Source of the DNA: Escherichia coli
GTDB lineage: Bacteria; Pseudomonadota; Gammaproteobacteria; Enterobacterales; Enterobacteriaceae
Assembly (NCBI RefSeq): GCF_003018255.1
Contig: NZ_CP027440.1
Length of the DNA stretch: 64,000 nucleotides
Direction: 5' to 3' (one strand)
The translations under genes and the position numbers were made by a program. The stretch's first letter is position 1. Each line of letters starts with the position of its first letter. Below the pieces are notes generated by a model. It was not told the origin of the DNA and did not search any database. It worked only from the letters and a program-made list of their open reading frames with translations. Positions 27,318 to 57,226 of this stretch are shown here, one piece after another.

Positions 27318-27442
27318 TTATTTGCTCGCCAGGAATTTTCGGAATAAATATGCTTTTGCATAATTCGATATATAAAGACGGTGTAGAGGAAAAGTAGCGA
27401 TAAATTCTGCATGGTTATGCATAACCATGCAGAAATGTAAAT

Positions 27443-47648: not shown

Positions 47649-49187
47649 ATGGCAAGAGCTGTACACCGTAGTGGGTTAGTGGCGCTGGGCATTGCGACAG
47701 CGTTGATGGCATCTTGTGCATTCGCTGCCAAAGATGTGGTGGTGGCGGTAGGATCGAACTTCACCACGCTCGATCCGTATGACGCAAATGACACGTTATC
47801 TCAGGCCGTAGCGAAATCGTTTTACCAGGGGCTGTTCGGTCTCGATAAAGAGATGAAACTGAAAAACGTGCTGGCGGAGAGTTATACCGTTTCCGATGAC
47901 GGCCTTACTTACACCGTGAAACTGCGGGAAGGAATTAAATTCCAGGATGGAACCGACTTCAACGCAGTGGCGGTAAAAGCGAATCTGGACCGGGCCAGCG
48001 ATCCGGCGAATCATCTTAAACGCTACAACCTGTATAAGAATATTGCCAAAACGGAGGCGATCGATCCGACAACGGTAAAGATTACTCTCAAACAGCCGTT
48101 CTCAGCGTTTATTAATATTCTTGCCCATCCGGCGACCGCGATGATTTCACCGGCAGCGCTGGAAAAATATGGCAAGGAGATTGGTTTTCATCCGGTGGGA
48201 ACCGGGCCGTATGAACTGGATACCTGGAATCAGACCGATTTTGTGAAGGTGAAAAAATTCGCGGGTTACTGGCAGCCAGGATTGCCCAAACTGGACAGCA
48301 TAACCTGGCGTCCGGTGGCGGATAACAACACCCGCGCGGCAATGCTGCAAACCGGTGAAGCGCAGTTTGCTTTCCCCATTCCCTACGAGCAGGCCGCACT
48401 GCTGGAGAAAAACAAAAATATCGAGTTGATGGCCAGTCCGTCAATTATGCAGCGTTATATCAGTATGAACGTGACGCAAAAGCCGTTCGATAACCCGAAG
48501 GTCCGTGAGGCGCTGAATCACGCCATTAACCGCCCGGCGCTGGTGAAAGTGGCCTTCGCGGGCTATGCAACGCCAGCTAGTGGTGTGGTACCGCCGAGTA
48601 TCGCCTACGCGCAAAGTTATAAACCGTGGCCTTACGATCCAGTGAAAGCGCGCGAATTACTGAAAGAGGCGGGATATCCCAACGGTTTCAGTACCACGCT
48701 GTGGTCGTCACATAACCACAGCACCGCGCAGAAAGTGCTGCAATTTACCCAGCAGCAGTTAGCGCAGGTCGGGATTAAAGCCCAGGTGACTGCGATGGAT
48801 GCCGGACAGCGGGCGGCAGAAGTCGAAGGTAAAGGGCAAAAAGAGAGCGGCGTGCGGATGTTCTACACTGGCTGGTCGGCTTCAACCGGCGAAGCCGACT
48901 GGGCTCTATCGCCGCTGTTTGCCTCGCAGAACTGGCCACCAACGCTGTTTAATACCGCGTTTTACAGCAATAAACAGGTGGATGACTTCCTGGCTCAGGC
49001 ACTGAAAACTAATGATCCGGCGGAAAAGACCCGCTTGTATAAGGCGGCGCAGGATATCATCTGGCAAGAGTCGCCGTGGATCCCGCTGGTGGTAGAAAAA
49101 CTTGTGTCGGCACACAGTAAAAACCTGACCGGTTTTTGGATCATGCCAGACACCGGCTTCAGCTTTGAAGATGCGGATTTGCAATAA
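47649..49187 (+). CDS. gsiB: Glutathione-binding periplasmic protein (SBP family 5)
   Basis: Start at [26 protein letters not shown] (512 aa, signal peptide), 20 bp after gsiA. Confidence 0.92.
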
Positions 49188-53571: not shown

Positions 53572-54900
53572 ATGTCCAGAATCAATAAGTTCGTACTTAC
53601 AGTCAGTCTGCTGATTTTTATCATGATTTCAGCAGTTGCCTGCGGGATCTACACTCAAATGGTAAAGGAACGGGTGTATAGCCTGAAACAGTCCGTTATT
53701 GATACTGCTTTTGCGGTGGCAAATATTGCTGAATATCGGCGTAGCGTGGCAATTGATCTTATCAACACGCTAAATCCCACGGAGGAACAGCTGTTGGTTG
53801 GCTTACGCACAGCTTACGCCGACTCGGTTTCACCCTCTTATTTGTACGATGTCGGTCCTTATCTGATTTCCAGTGACGAATGTATTCAGGTAAAGGAGTT
53901 CGAGAAAAATTATTGTGCAGATATTATGCAGGTTGTGAAGTATCGACATGTCAAAAATACAGGGTTTATCTCTTTTGATGGTAAAACCTTCGTCTATTAC
54001 CTCTATCCGGTAACTCACAATCGTAGTCTGATATTTTTGCTTGGTCTGGAACGTTTTTCTTTACTGTCAAAATCGCTGGCGATGGATAGCGAGAACCTGA
54101 TGTTCTCCCTGTTCAAGAACGGTAAATCGGTGACCGGTGATGAATATAACGCTAAAAACGCCATCTTCACTGTTTCGGAAGCGATGGAGCACTTCGCCTA
54201 TTTGCCGACCGGGTTGTACGTATTTGCTTATAAAAAAGACGTTTATTTTCAGGTATGTACATTGATTATTTTCTTTGCCGCATTGGTGGCAGTGATATCG
54301 GGTGCCAGTTGCCTCTATCTGGTACGCAGAGTGATTAATCGTGGTATTGTGGAGAAAGAAGCCATTATTAATAACCATTTTGAACGCGTACTGGATGGCG
54401 GGCTTTTCTTTTCGGCTGCCGATGTCAAAAAACTCTACAGTATGTATAACTCGGCATTCCTGGACGATCTGACCAAAGCGATGGGCAGAAAATCCTTTGA
54501 CGAAGATTTAAAAGCGCTGCCGGAAAAAGGCGGTTATTTGTGCCTGTTTGACGTCGATAAATTCAAAAACATTAACGACACCTTCGGTCATTTGCTGGGC
54601 GATGAAGTGTTGATGAAAGTGGTGAAAATCCTTAAATCACAGCTCCCCGTAGATAAAGGTAAAGTCTACCGCTTCGGCGGTGACGAATTTGCGGTGATTT
54701 ATACGGGTGGAACGCTGGAAGAGTTGCTATCGATTCTAAAAGAAATTGTTCATTTCCAGGTGGGAAGCATTAATTTAAGCACCAGTATCGGTGTAGCGCA
54801 TTCAAATGAATGTACTACCGTCGAACGCTTGAAAATGCTGGCGGATGAGCGACTGTATAAGAGTAAGAAAAACGGCAGGGCGCAGATTAGCTGGCAGTAG
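53572..54900 (+). CDS. dgcI: Membrane-anchored diguanylate cyclase (GGDEF domain)
   Basis: 442 aa; active-site motif RFGGDEF; 8 bp downstream of pdeI. Confidence 0.9.
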
Positions 54901-54914
54901 AATTAGAATAGTGT

Positions 54915-54940
54915 TAGTACCCCTTAATCAAGGGGTACTA
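54915..54940. terminator. Perfect inverted repeat just after the dgcI stop (left edge of TA islet)
   Basis: tagtacccctt-aatc-aaggggtacta: 11-bp stems, 4-nt loop; no strong U-tract on either side. Confidence 0.4.
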
Positions 54941-54969
54941 ATGAATGTGGTAAATCATTTGCAAACATT

Positions 54970-55299
54970 TTACTTTGCAAAAACTTCCGGCCCTTTTATT
55001 GCCAATGTATTCAAAATACGTAATGCCGGGCCGCTCGGTTTTATTTCATTACGTTCCCATTTCGAGACACTTTCTTTTGACATTCCCATTGTATGTGCCA
55101 GCACGGATTGTGACATGCCGTATCGGGTGCGGATGGCTTTGATCTCTTCACCCGTCATTGATTTGACTTTGGCTATACGGGCGCTGACTTCACGAGCTTT
55201 GACCATGACGGCAATGGCATCAACTTCACTATCAGACATCAGGCCCAGTGCATTCAGTTCCTTTGCATCTTCCAGCATCATTTGTAATTTATCGCTCAT
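54970..55299 (-). CDS. Type II antitoxin, XRE-family helix-turn-helix protein (HigA-like)
   Basis: 109 aa; HTH segment GMSQSVLAHTMGMSKESVSKWERNEIKPSGPALRIL; start overlaps the upstream toxin ORF by 11 bp. Confidence 0.75.
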   Translation of the reverse strand: MSDKLQMMLEDAKELNALGLMSDSEVDAIAVMVKAREVSARIAKVKSMTGEEIKAIRTRYGMSQSVLAHTMGMSKESVSKWERNEIKPSGPALRILNTLAIKGPEVFAK

Positions 55300-55675
55300 T
55301 TTTCACCTCAATCAAAAAGCCAGTTTCGATCAAATCCTCTATTTGCTTATTGCTAAAGGCCAGAAATGCATTTGCCATTTTTTTGTAGGCCGCCAGTTCA
55401 TCATCTTCGATTTCTTTGGTTCCTTTACTGCTTAGACCACTCTTGGACCAACCATCATAAAAAAACACATGATTTGCTGATTTAAAAAAGATAATTGTTC
55501 TGGCTCCACCACTCTTTCCTTGTTGGAGGGGTAAACGTTTTTTGATGACACCGCTACCTAAATCAGCCTCCCATATGCCCTGAATCACTTCTTCAGCGGC
55601 AGCCATGAGAACTTTATCGTGAATACCAAGTTTTTTCGTGCTTTGGCTGAATCGTCTTGCCTTATACACACCCAT
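55289..55675 (-). CDS. Type II toxin, RelE/HigB-like (probable mRNA interferase)
   Basis: 128 aa; family-typical segments LPLQQGKSGGARTIIFF and FFYDGWSKS; AAGGA ribosome-binding site ~7 bp upstream of the ATG; toxin-first operon order. Confidence 0.7.
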   Translation of the reverse strand: MGVYKARRFSQSTKKLGIHDKVLMAAAEEVIQGIWEADLGSGVIKKRLPLQQGKSGGARTIIFFKSANHVFFYDGWSKSGLSSKGTKEIEDDELAAYKKMANAFLAFSNKQIEDLIETGFLIEVKNER

Positions 55676-55685
55676 ACATCCATCC

Positions 55686-55720
55686 TTGTGGTAATGTTTA
55701 CTATAGTAACCATTACGCTT
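55686..55720 (-). promoter_or_regulatory. Putative promoter/operator of the toxin-antitoxin operon
   Basis: Imperfect palindrome ggtaatgtttactatagtaaccattac containing a -10-like hexamer (minus-strand tactat), 15-45 bp upstream of the toxin ATG. Confidence 0.4.
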
Positions 55721-55900
55721 ATTTCAAGTAATTGCGATCAAAACTTTAATTTGGTGTGAAAAAGTGAGAGTTGCCTCGAGTACGATTCATTTTTCTCGAT
55801 TTATGCGTCAGGGGATTTTGTGCGTAAGGGTAGGACATCGGGAAGGGTAGCAGAGGCAGATCGAAGAACAATATCCTTGTTAGATCTGCCTTAAGATTAA

Positions 55901-57226
55901 TTAAACCCGGCTACCCCACAAATCGTACTCATCGGCGTGCTCGACTTTCACACGCAGGATATCACCCGGCTTAACGTTGGTTTCACCATTGAGATAAACC
56001 GCGCCGTCGATTTCCGGTGCATCTGCCATGCTGCGACCAATCGCACCTTCTTCGTCCACTTCGTCGATAATCACCAGAATTTCACGGCCCACTTTCTCTT
56101 GCAGGCGCTCGGCGGAAATCTGCTGCTGCAACTGCATGAAACGGTTCCAGCGTTCTTCTTTCACTTCTTCCGGAACCTGGTCAGGCAGGGCATTGGCGTC
56201 TGCACCTTCAACCGGGCTGTATTTAAAGCAGCCAACGCGATCCAGACGTGCTTCTTTCAGGAAGTCGAGTAGCATCTGGAAATCTTCTTCCGTCTCGCCA
56301 GGGAAGCCGACAATAAAGGTTGAGCGTAGGGTCAGTTCCGGGCAGATTTCGCGCCACTGTTTGATGCGCGCGAGTTGGCGATCTACAGAACCCGGACGCT
56401 TCATCAGTTTGAGAATGCGCGGGCTGGCGTGCTGCAACGGAATGTCCAGATAGGGCAGGATTTTGCCTTCTGCCATCAGTGGGATGACGTCGTCCACATG
56501 CGGATAAGGGTAAACGTAGTGCAGACGTGTCCAGATCCCCAGTTTCGATAACTGTTCGCACAGGCTGACCATGCTGGTTTTTACCGGCTCGCCGTTGTGG
56601 AAGCCAGTACGATGTTTAACATCGACGCCATAGGCGGAAGTATCCTGCGAGATCACCAGAATCTCTTTAACGCCCGCATCAACCAGACGTTTCGCTTCAC
56701 TTAACACTTCGCCAATCGGACGGCTCACTAGGTCGCCGCGCATAGACGGAATAATGCAGAAGGTGCAGCGGTGATTACAGCCTTCAGAAATTTTCAGATA
56801 GGCATAATGACGCGGCGTCAGTTTCACACCTTGTTCTGGCACCAGGCTCAGGAATGGGTTGTGTTTCGGTTTTGGCACGTAGTGATGAACGTGCTCCAGA
56901 ACCTGCTCATAGCTATGAGGCCCGGTGATTTCCAGCACTTTCGGGTGGACTTCGCGGATCTGATCTTCTTTTGCCCCCAGACAACCGGTCACAATTACCT
57001 TGCCGTTTTCATTCAACGCTTCACCAATGGCTTCCAGTGATTCTTGTACCGCGCTGTCAATAAAGCCGCAGGTGTTGACGATCACCATGTCCGCATCGTC
57101 ATAGCTCGGTACCACGTCATAACCTTCAGTGCGTAGTTCGGTGAGAATACGCTCTGAATCGACAAGGTTTTTCGGGCAGCCAAGGGAAACAAAGCCGATT
57201 TTCGGCTGGGGAGTTACTTTGCTCAT
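55901..57226 (-). CDS. rimO: Ribosomal protein S12 methylthiotransferase (radical SAM MTTase)
   Basis: 441 aa; radical-SAM CxxxCxxC (CNHRCTFC); N-terminal MTTase domain and C-terminal TRAM region. Confidence 0.95.

What the first reader, a model, noticed from the sequence alone, without database searches (positions are those of the whole stretch)
55686..55720. Palindromic operator overlapping a -10-like element upstream of the toxin gene
Between 15 and 45 bp upstream of the toxin ATG lies an imperfect palindrome (ggtaatgtttactatagtaaccattac) that contains a -10-like hexamer on the minus strand, preceded by an AAGGA ribosome-binding site. This is the expected layout for antitoxin-mediated autorepression and supports the view that the pair is an autonomous, self-regulated operon.
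Basis: inference. Interest (0 to 1): 0.35.

Follow-up and report, generated by a model that had tools for sequence, protein, structure and literature searches.

The report
Conserved operator of a HigBA2-like toxin-antitoxin cassette
The palindrome is real and is very probably the DNA site where the antitoxin of a small, mobile E. coli toxin-antitoxin cassette sits on its own promoter to shut it off; this is an ordinary kind of control, here backed by strong conservation across many bacterial genera.

Summary
A 26-bp palindrome lies at 55691-55716 (13-nt arms, 12/13 complementary), 15 nt upstream of the toxin ATG. Its centre is the -10 hexamer TATAGT of a minus-strand sigma-70-like promoter (TTGAAA-16-TATAGT). 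An AAGGA ribosome-binding site follows it.

Palindromes of this quality are rare: 4 in the 64-kb window against 0.2 expected.

The gene pair is a HigB2/HigA2-type module: a PF06296 toxin and an XRE-HTH antitoxin. It sits on a ~1-kb cassette present between dgcI and rimO in 1128 of 5426 complete E. coli genomes.

In about 40 homologous cassettes from other Enterobacterales the flanking DNA is unalignable. The motif cGTAA-N5-ACTATAGT-N5-TTACg is nevertheless kept 13-26 nt before the toxin start. Two loci that lost the toxin keep it directly before the antitoxin.

Each half is itself GTAA-N3-TTAC, with centres 15 bp apart. That resembles MqsA and C-protein operators more than the single 7-N5-7 operator of V. 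cholerae HigA2.

Best explanation: an antitoxin operator that occludes the promoter and gives autorepression (confidence about 0.85). Binding is inferred, not shown. It is a new member of a known kind and of modest interest.

The parts
55691..55716 (-). 26-bp dyad-symmetric operator, GTAATGGTTACTA|TAGTAAACATTAC on the minus strand
   Evidence: Inverted repeat I2, 12/13 complementary. Unique in the window even at up to 4 of 16 mismatches to the family motif. Conserved in about 40 homologous loci.
55706..55716 (-). Promoter-distal sub-site GTAATGGTTAC (4-N3-4), lying in the spacer between -35 and -10
   Evidence: Exact GTAANNNTTAC match. Sub-site symmetry peaks at position -8 (0.72) across 29 loci.
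55691..55701 (-). Promoter-proximal sub-site GTAAACATTAC (4-N3-4), covering the last 2 nt of the -10 through the predicted transcription start
   Evidence: Exact GTAANNNTTAC match. Sub-site symmetry peaks at position +8 (0.83).
55700..55705 (-). -10 hexamer TATAGT
   Evidence: Promoter scan. The hexamer is TATAGT or TATAAT in 29 of 31 distinct homologous upstream regions.
55722..55727 (-). -35 hexamer TTGAAA, 16-nt spacer to the -10
   Evidence: Promoter scan. A TTG-type -35 at 15-19 nt is found in 16 of 31 homologous regions.
55683..55687 (-). Shine-Dalgarno AAGGA, 7 nt before the toxin ATG
   Evidence: Read directly from the sequence.
55289..55675 (-). Toxin gene, 128 aa, HigB2-type RelE-fold (Pfam PF06296)
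   Evidence: ORF list. Pfam E 2.9e-32. A profile of the family hits V. cholerae HigB-2 in the PDB at E 3e-4. The AF2 model's best Foldseek hits are HigB2 chains 8a0x_C and 5ja8_E.
54970..55299 (-). Antitoxin gene, 109 aa: N-terminal helical region plus C-terminal XRE-HTH domain. It overlaps the toxin gene by 11 nt.
   Evidence: ORF list. HTH_3 E 1.9e-9. HigA-2 5jaa E 6e-4. AF2 pLDDT 89; top Foldseek hit is the HigA2 C-domain 5j9i, rmsd 1.5 A.
54900..55895 (.). Extent of the toxin-antitoxin cassette, relative to cassette-free E. coli
   Evidence: Comparison of the window with empty-site locus L002.
55854..55891 (-). Stable hairpin at the rimO-proximal end of the cassette, with no T-tract; possible insulator against rimO read-through
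   Evidence: Inverted repeat I1. RNA fold -16.2 kcal/mol, z -3.6. The function is inferred.
54913..54942 (.). Stable hairpin after the antitoxin stop and the dgcI stop
   Evidence: Palindrome scan. RNA folds -17.7 and -21.6 kcal/mol, z -4.1 and -4.9. The function is inferred.

Best explanation
The palindrome is the operator of a HigBA2-type toxin-antitoxin operon.

Proposed mechanism. The 109-aa antitoxin dimerises through its C-terminal XRE-HTH domain. Alone or with toxin bound to its N-terminal region, it recognises the conserved GTAA/TTAC blocks. These blocks flank and overlap the -10 hexamer TATAGT and the predicted transcription start, around 55692-55695. The site fills the stretch from just after the -35 to about +1, so a bound repressor excludes RNA polymerase and the operon represses itself.

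Likely stoichiometry (inferred). The site is most simply read as two 11-bp sub-sites, GTAA-N3-TTAC, with centres 15 bp apart. [quoted passage not shown] One dimer centred on the TATA dyad with extra flank contacts remains possible.

What is shown and what is inferred.
- Shown: the sequence anatomy, the family assignments, and the co-conservation of site and antitoxin.
- Inferred: binding, repression, stoichiometry and the effect of the toxin.
For: 1. The palindrome is real and rare, and its centre is the -10 of a 10/12 sigma-70 match.

2. Conservation across 28 non-redundant homologous loci from many Enterobacterales genera, with toxins only 34-73% identical:
- Information content peaks at -13..-10 (GTAA, 0.9-2.1 bits), at -5..+4 ([T/G]ACTATAGT) and at +10..+13 (TTAC, 0.6-1.6 bits).
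- It is lower, 0.1-0.9 bit, at +/-6..9.
- It is mostly 0.0-0.3 bit in the flanks beyond about +/-16, apart from a -35-like rise near -25 and a purine-rich rise near +22.

3. Mirror complementarity is 69.5% in register against 12-37% when shifted by 1-3 nt.

4. In 273 kb of fetched loci, scanned on both strands, the 26-bp motif with at most 3 of 16 mismatches gives 29 hits lying 13-26 nt upstream of a placed toxin start. Eleven more hits lie at loci where my script placed no start or the start was off. By eye nearly all of these sit at the toxin or antitoxin 5' end, and one is a clear stray.

5. Two loci that lost the toxin (L044, L047) keep the motif directly upstream of the antitoxin.

6. The antitoxin recognition helix SVSKWER is invariant in the whole clade, matching the invariant half-sites.

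7. The positions that vary (+/-6..9) do not preserve pairing. This is block-wise protein recognition, not a hairpin.

8. The conserved AC before TATA and the non-consensus G in TATAGT are explained as the inner half-sites of the two sub-sites. Sub-site symmetry peaks exactly at -8 and +8, at 0.72 and 0.83.

9. The closest solved relative, V. cholerae HigA2, footprints on a single inverted repeat that starts after the -35 and extends over the -10, and it represses in vivo (PMC11006873). A. baumannii HigA2 also represses its own promoter, with the toxin acting as co-repressor (PMC5906591).
Against: - No binding, footprint, transcription start or reporter data exist for this pair.
- The central 8 bp could be conserved for promoter function alone.
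- A TTG-type -35 at 15-19 nt is recognisable in only about half of the homologous regions.
- Statistical covariation of mirrored positions is weak (p 0.02-0.07 for individual pairs), and the loci are phylogenetically related.
- The alignment was anchored on the central TATA, which inflates conservation there, though not at +/-10..13.
- The operator sequence and geometry differ from the V. cholerae HigA2 operator, and all four of its base-contacting residues are replaced here. The analogy is therefore one of position, not of sequence.
Confidence: 0.85

Rival explanations
1. The site is only a promoter. The central TATAGT is the -10, and the symmetric flanks are incidental or help RNA polymerase, with no repressor involved.
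For: The -10 and -35 match is good, and the most conserved columns include the -10 hexamer.
Against: - GTAA at -13..-10 and TTAC at +10..+13 are about as conserved as the -10 itself. They lie in the spacer and at the transcription start, where sigma-70 promoters have no sequence requirement.
- They are mirror images of each other.
- The non-consensus G of TATAGT and the AC preceding TATA are kept.
Confidence: 0.05
2. The site is an operator for a host-encoded or other trans-acting regulator, not for the cognate antitoxin.
For: No direct evidence identifies the binding protein. XRE-type sites of similar shape exist for many regulators.
Against: - The motif travels with the cassette across many genera and different chromosomal contexts.
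- It stays with the antitoxin when the toxin is lost.
- The antitoxin is the only DNA-binding protein that co-travels, and its recognition helix is invariant.
- The motif occurs only once in the 64-kb window.
Confidence: 0.05
3. The palindrome acts as a nucleic-acid hairpin: an RNA structure in a longer leader, a terminator for rimO read-through, or a DNA cruciform.
For: rimO is upstream on the same strand, and no canonical terminator lies between it and the palindrome. A 13-bp stem could form.
Against: - The RNA fold of 55660-55730 (minus strand) is no better than shuffles: -11 kcal/mol, z -0.02.
- There is no T-tract and no Rfam match.
- Across homologues, 4 of the 13 stem positions do not keep pairing, while the conserved blocks keep sequence rather than merely pairing.
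- The predicted transcription start falls inside the palindrome.
Confidence: 0.03
4. The site is a recombination site that mobilises the cassette, such as an Xer/dif-like or integron attC-like site.
For: The cassette is an insertion/deletion polymorphism. V. cholerae higBA2 is an integron cassette, and the site has two arms around a short AT-rich core.
Against: - There is only one copy per cassette.
- It lies about 180 bp inside the cassette boundary at 55895, not at a junction.
- Its distance to the start codon and its overlap with the -10 are fixed across loci.
- No similarity to the dif or attC consensus was seen by inspection.
Confidence: 0.02

Closest known systems
Vibrio cholerae higBA2 operator bound by HigA2 (PMC11006873; PDB 8a0w, 8a0x)
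   Same: - Toxin-first operon.
- The toxin is in Pfam PF06296, and the HigB2 fold is the best structural match.
- The antitoxin has an N-terminal toxin-binding region plus a C-terminal XRE-HTH dimerisation domain; the best structural match is 5j9i at rmsd 1.5 A.
- The operator is an inverted repeat placed from just after the -35 across the -10.
   Different: - The V. cholerae site is a single 7-N5-7 repeat (TGTACGC-N5-GCGTACA, 19 bp) bound by one dimer. Here the site is 26-30 bp, with conserved blocks at +/-10..13 and +/-3..5.
- The half-site sequence is unrelated.
- The base-contacting residues R68, E71, N72 and R77 are replaced by E76, S79, K80 and E85.
- Protein similarity is remote: E about 6e-4 for the antitoxin, and about 3e-4 for the toxin only when a profile is used.
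Restriction-modification controller (C) protein operators, e.g. C.Esp1396I OL+OR (PMC2504287)
   Same: - XRE-HTH dimers of similar fold appear among the top structural neighbours (4yba, 2b5a, 3clc).
- The operator is built of two 4-N3-4 units (GACT-TAT-AGTC there, GTAA-N3-TTAC here).
- Centres are 15 bp apart, around conserved TATA elements overlapping promoter hexamers.
- In some homologues the central motif GACTATAGTC closely resembles a C-box.
   Different: - C proteins control restriction-modification genes and both activate and repress.
- TATA sits at the centre of each C-protein sub-site, whereas here it lies between the two sub-sites.
- There is no evidence here for activation or for binding by a tetramer.
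E. coli MqsA operator (AACCT-N3-AGGTT; PMC4894380)
   Same: - Toxin-first type II module.
- The antitoxin HTH domain is related: TIGR03830 E 1.8e-12 over residues 35-106, and 3fmy rmsd 1.8 A.
- The palindrome unit has the same N3 geometry and occurs in the module's own promoter.
   Different: - The antitoxin lacks the N-terminal zinc-binding domain of MqsA, and its score of 47 is below the family cut-off of 61.8.
- The toxin is not MqsR.
- The half-site sequence differs.
Acinetobacter baumannii higBA2 (pAB120) autoregulation (PMC5906591)
   Same: A toxin-first HigB2/HigA2-named module. Its promoter is repressed by the antitoxin, and more strongly by the complex, in GFP reporter assays.
   Different: The operator was not mapped in that work. 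The sequence relationship to the E. coli pair was not tested here.

Membership tests
HigBA2-type (PF06296 toxin / XRE-HTH antitoxin) type II toxin-antitoxin operon | The toxin belongs to Pfam PF06296 and has a RelE/HigB2 fold | tested here: met
   Pfam E 2.9e-32, 111.9 bits against a cut-off of 27. A profile hits HigB-2 5ja8/5ja9/8a0x at E 3e-4. The top Foldseek hits are HigB2 chains.
HigBA2-type (PF06296 toxin / XRE-HTH antitoxin) type II toxin-antitoxin operon | Toxin gene first, with an overlapping or adjacent downstream antitoxin that has a C-terminal XRE-HTH domain like HigA2 | tested here: met
   Gene order and an 11-nt overlap. HTH_3 E 1.9e-9. HigA-2 5jaa E 6e-4. Foldseek rank 1 is 5j9i, rmsd 1.5 A, TM 0.79-0.82 normalised to the target.
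HigBA2-type (PF06296 toxin / XRE-HTH antitoxin) type II toxin-antitoxin operon | Toxicity of the toxin and its neutralisation by the antitoxin | not testable with these tools
   Needs expression experiments. Indirect hint: several homologous loci carry decayed toxins beside intact antitoxins.
Antitoxin operator giving autorepression (as mapped for V. cholerae HigA2) | Inverted repeat located between the -35 and across the -10 of the operon's own promoter | tested here: met
   Palindrome at 55691-55716, with the -35 at 55727-55722 and the -10 at 55705-55700. The same layout is seen in homologues.
Antitoxin operator giving autorepression (as mapped for V. cholerae HigA2) | The site co-evolves or co-travels with the cognate DNA-binding antitoxin | tested here: met
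   The motif is conserved in about 40 of 55 homologous loci against unconserved flanks. It is kept upstream of orphan antitoxins. The recognition helix is invariant.
Antitoxin operator giving autorepression (as mapped for V. cholerae HigA2) | Same operator sequence and geometry as V. cholerae (TGTACGC-N5-GCGTACA, one dimer) | tested here: not met
   Different half-sites and a longer, dual-symmetry site. The base-contacting residues are replaced.
Antitoxin operator giving autorepression (as mapped for V. cholerae HigA2) | Physical binding of the antitoxin and repression of transcription | not testable with these tools
   Needs EMSA, footprinting and reporter assays.
C-protein-like dual operator (two HTH dimers 15 bp apart) | Two internally symmetric 4-N3-4 sub-sites with centres 15 bp apart | tested here: met
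   GTAATGGTTAC and GTAAACATTAC are exact matches. Sub-site symmetry peaks at -8 and +8 across 29 loci. The C.Esp1396I geometry is taken from PMC2504287.
C-protein-like dual operator (two HTH dimers 15 bp apart) | Occupancy by two dimers, with cooperative binding and an activation/repression switch | not testable with these tools
   Needs stoichiometry measurements (ITC, SEC-MALS, crystal or cryo-EM structure) and reporter titration.
MqsA-family antitoxin | N-terminal zinc-binding (CxxC) toxin-binding domain plus the C-terminal HTH; score above the family cut-off | tested here: not met
   TIGR03830 scores 47.1 bits against a cut-off of 61.8, and only over the HTH part. There are no cysteines in the 109-aa sequence.
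Intrinsic terminator or structured RNA element | A stable conserved stem, a T-tract or a known RNA family | tested here: not met
   z-score -0.02. No terminator call on the minus strand. No Rfam match at E up to 1. Pairing is not conserved at +/-6..9.

The most novel reading that the evidence does not exclude
The operator is a dual-symmetry site bound by two antitoxin dimers on opposite faces of the DNA, 15 bp apart. This would be the architecture known from restriction-modification controller proteins rather than that of V. cholerae HigA2. It would give cooperative, switch-like autoregulation of a toxin-antitoxin module, with the toxin possibly bridging or breaking the dimer-dimer contact. 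The Enterobacterales HigBA2-like clade would then have converged on, or share ancestry with, the C-protein genetic switch.
Probability: 0.35. Interest if true: 0.45.

Novelty: new member of a known kind. Interest (0 to 1): 0.3.

Why it matters
The result gives a precise, testable operator and consensus, cGTAA-N3-[T/G]TAC-TATA-GTA[A/C]-N3-TTACg, for an uncharacterised HigBA2-like module carried by about a fifth of complete E. coli genomes and by many other Enterobacterales.

It shows that the module is a self-contained cassette with its own promoter.

It also suggests that operator architecture within the HigA2 family is not uniform: a single 7-N5-7 site in Vibrio, and two 4-N3-4 sites here. 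This bears on how toxin-to-antitoxin ratios are sensed.

The motif can be used to annotate promoters of this family and to spot orphan antitoxins that still autoregulate. It does not change general understanding of how toxin-antitoxin modules are regulated.

Tried and rejected
- RNA structure. The fold of the leader region is no better than shuffles and there is no Rfam hit. Rejected.
- Terminator for rimO read-through. The scan finds no terminator on the minus strand. Rejected for the palindrome. The separate hairpin at 55854-55891 may play that role.
- Recombination site. The palindrome is internal to the cassette, not at its junctions. Rejected.
- Direct sequence search of the toxin against the PDB found nothing. 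Only a family profile reached HigB-2.
- NCBIfam has no model for the toxin.
- Literature searches for the locus (rimO/dgcI plus toxin-antitoxin; the protein accessions) found nothing.
- Column-shuffle covariation tests on mirrored positions gave only weak signals, p 0.02-0.07. I do not rest the case on covariation.
- I looked for a link between recognition-helix variants and half-site variants. The helix core is invariant. Only a loose association was seen between SKE/SVE-type antitoxins and the inner half-site being TAC or GAC. Not conclusive.
- Not attempted: operator polymorphism within E. coli (too little divergence to be informative) and protein-DNA complex modelling (no tool).

Full report

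Yes. The repeat finder reports an inverted repeat with arms 55691-55703 (GTAATGTTTACTA) and 55704-55716 (TAGTAACCATTAC). The arms are 13 nt each, 92% complementary, and have no spacer.

On the minus strand, which is the coding strand of the adjacent genes, the region reads TTGAAA-TAAGC-GTAATGGTTAC-TATA-GTAAACATTAC-CAC-AAGGA-TGGATGT-ATG. The consensus scan finds a sigma-70-like promoter on that strand:
- TTGAAA at 55727-55722
- a 16-nt spacer
- TATAGT at 55705-55700, giving 10 of 12 matches

The -10 hexamer is therefore at the palindrome centre. AAGGA (55687-55683) lies 7 nt before the ATG at 55675. In the direction of transcription it follows the palindrome.

Palindromes of this quality are rare. 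Only four distinct ones occur in the 64-kb window, against 0.2 expected. The other three are terminator-like hairpins. The promoter match on its own is not above chance for the region.

**2. What are the genes?**

- ORF 55289-55675 (minus strand, 128 aa) matches Pfam PF06296 'RelE' end to end, at E 2.9e-32. According to a 2025 survey of the superfamily (PMC11980606), this is the family that contains V. cholerae HigB-2.
  - A direct search of the PDB found nothing.
  - A profile of 19 homologues hits HigB-2 chains at E 3e-4.
  - An AlphaFold2 model (pLDDT 82) has HigB2 as its two best Foldseek matches, followed by RelE, YafQ and ParE-family chains among others.
- ORF 54970-55299 (minus strand, 109 aa) overlaps the toxin gene by 11 nt.
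  - It carries an XRE-type HTH (HTH_3, E 1.9e-9).
  - It matches HigA-2 in the PDB at E 6e-4.
  - Its model (pLDDT 89) superposes best on the HigA2 C-terminal domain: 5j9i, rmsd 1.5 A over 61 residues. The HigB2-HigA2-operator complex 8a0x is also among the top hits.

The pair is therefore a toxin-first HigBA2-type module. RefSeq annotates it only generically.

**3. Is the pair autonomous?**

A megablast of 54850-55950 against 5426 complete E. coli genomes finds the full region in 1128 of them. The remaining matching genomes align only over the dgcI and rimO gene ends.

In a cassette-free strain, a 46-bp spacer separates dgcI from rimO. In the window, about 996 bp (54900-55895) take its place. 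The cassette carries its own promoter region and is bounded by two stable hairpins:
- 55854-55891, z -3.6
- 54913-54942, z -4.1 and -4.9 on the two strands

**4. Is the palindrome functional? Comparative test.**

The antitoxin family alignment (23 sequences, down to 47% identity) has an invariant recognition-helix core, S77-V-S-K-W-E-R83. The family's operator half-sites should therefore be conserved too.

A scan of one genome per species returned 55 loci, almost all from Enterobacterales. In most of them a toxin gene, 34-73% identical, lies immediately upstream of the antitoxin.

The DNA upstream of those toxin genes is unalignable except for one block: cCGTAA-N5-ACTATAGT-N5-TTACGg.

On 28 non-redundant loci:
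- Information content peaks at -13..-10 (GTAA, 0.9-2.1 bits), at -5..+4 ([T/G]ACTATAGT) and at +10..+13 (TTAC, 0.6-1.6 bits).
- It is lower, 0.1-0.9 bit, at +/-6..9.
- It is mostly 0.0-0.3 bit beyond about +/-16. The exceptions are a rise near -25 to -23, where a -35-like TTG sits at variable spacing, and a purine-rich rise near +22, the ribosome-binding region.

Mirror-image complementarity is 69.5% in register, and 12-37% when one arm is slid by 1-3 nt.

A search for the 26-bp motif (at most 3 of 16 mismatches) over all 273 kb of fetched loci, on both strands, gives the following:
- 29 hits lie 13-26 nt upstream of a toxin start that my script could place.
- 11 more hits lie at loci where the script placed no start or the start was off. 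By eye, nearly all of these sit at the toxin or antitoxin 5' end.
- One hit is a clear stray.
- In the 64-kb window the motif is unique even at 4 mismatches.

Two natural deletion variants are telling. L044 (Silvania) and L047 (Xenorhabdus) have lost the toxin gene but keep the motif directly upstream of the antitoxin. By contrast, loci whose toxin 5' end was deleted together with the upstream region have lost the motif (L021, L048, L035, L045, L051, L052).

The -10 is TATAGT or TATAAT in 29 of 31 distinct upstream regions. It ends 22-35 nt before the start codon in all but two loci where the start was misplaced. A TTG-type -35 at 15-19 nt is recognisable in about half.

**5. Anatomy of the site.**

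Each half of the palindrome is itself an inverted repeat, GTAA-N3-TTAC. In the window these are GTAATGGTTAC and GTAAACATTAC, both exact matches.

Across 29 loci, a scan for 4-N3-4 symmetry peaks sharply at -8 (0.72) and +8 (0.83), against at most 0.59 elsewhere. The two sub-sites are therefore 15 bp apart, centre to centre.

This reading explains three features that a bare promoter does not:
- the conserved AC before TATA;
- the non-consensus G in TATAGT, which is the inner half-site of the proximal sub-site;
- the unconserved triplets at the sub-site centres.

Some symmetric substitutions occur:
- TAC...GTA against GAC...GTC;
- ATTATAAT in L010;
- C/G against T/A at +/-15.

The column-shuffle statistics are only weakly significant (p 0.02-0.07), and the loci are related to one another. 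I treat this as supporting evidence, not decisive evidence.

**6. Mechanism.**

The distal sub-site fills the promoter spacer. The proximal one covers the end of the -10 and the predicted start at about 55692-55695. A bound HTH protein would exclude RNA polymerase. This gives negative autoregulation by the antitoxin, probably strengthened by bound toxin, as was shown for A. baumannii HigBA2 (PMC5906591).

Two binding modes remain open:
- **(a) Two dimers, one per sub-site, on roughly opposite faces of the DNA.** I rate this about 50% likely, given that the site is an operator. C.Esp1396I does exactly this on two 4-N3-4 units 15 bp apart (PMC2504287). MqsA, whose HTH domain is related, binds AACCT-N3-AGGTT (PMC4894380). 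This mode also fits the low conservation at +/-6..9.
- **(b) One dimer on the central dyad, with the N-terminal region contacting the outer blocks.** I rate this about 30% likely. It would extend the 'fuzzy' flank contacts that the HigA2 disordered region makes in Vibrio (PMC11006873).

Binding, repression, stoichiometry and the transcription start are all inferred.

**7. Comparison with known systems.**

The closest characterised system is V. cholerae higBA2. Its operator is a single TGTACGC-N5-GCGTACA repeat, footprinted from just after the -35 across the -10, and it is bound by one HigA2 dimer (PMC11006873).

- Same here: position and logic.
- Different here: sequence and geometry. In addition, all four base-contacting residues (R68, E71, N72, R77) align to different residues in this antitoxin (E76, S79, K80, E85).

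The protein is not an MqsA-family member. It has no zinc-binding domain and scores below the family cut-off.

**8. Rivals.**

- A promoter with incidental symmetry fails to explain the mirrored conservation at +/-10..13.
- A host-factor site fails to explain co-travel with the antitoxin across genera and contexts.
- A hairpin function is contradicted by several results: the fold is no better than shuffles (z -0.02); there is no T-tract or Rfam match; and pairing is not conserved at +/-6..9.
- A recombination site would be expected at the cassette junctions, not 180 bp inside the cassette at a fixed distance from the start codon.

**9. Verdict.**

In kind, the element is ordinary: an autoregulatory operator of a type II toxin-antitoxin module. 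It is a new member of that kind, with a well-defined consensus and a dual-symmetry layout that differs from the one characterised HigA2 operator. Interest is modest, at 0.3.

Noticed in passing
window 54900-55895: The whole toxin-antitoxin module is an insertion/deletion cassette between dgcI and rimO. It is present in 1128 of 5426 complete E. coli genomes. It replaces a 42-bp hairpin-containing spacer found in cassette-free strains. A short AATTA microhomology is seen at both junctions.
   Followed up: partly
window 55854-55891 and 54913-54942: Two stable hairpins without T-tracts bound the cassette (RNA z-scores -3.6 and -4.1/-4.9). They may insulate it from rimO or dgcI transcription. No canonical terminator separates rimO from the toxin-antitoxin promoter on the same strand.
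   Followed up: partly
window 55800-55833: Tandem 17-nt direct repeat TTTATGCGTCAGGGGAT / TTTGTGCGTAAGGGTAG (76% identical), in the 180-bp stretch between the operator and the cassette end. Its function is unknown.
   Followed up: no
window 27405-27434: Perfect 30-bp palindrome TTCTGCATGGTTATGCATAACCATGCAGAA, immediately after the stop of the rhtA-like ORF (27443, minus strand) and upstream of the dps-like ORF. It is probably a terminator hairpin.
   Followed up: partly
L013, L014, L036, L046; L021, L035, L045, L048, L051, L052; L044, L047: Many homologous loci have a decayed or deleted toxin gene beside an intact antitoxin. The damage is frameshifts, premature stops or 5' deletions. L013 also has a 4-bp deletion in the right half of the operator, and L015/L016 have lost the right outer half-site.
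   Followed up: partly
L003 (contig JAIJJM010000872.1, 1198 bp): A contig binned as 'Collinsella sp.' in a metagenome-assembled genome carries the antitoxin at 100% identity and the toxin at 99% identity to the E. coli cassette. It is most likely a binning contaminant.
   Followed up: no
window 48075-48085: A third exact GTAANNNTTAC match (GTAAAGATTAC) lies elsewhere in the window. It stands alone, without a partner sub-site, and is probably chance.
   Followed up: no
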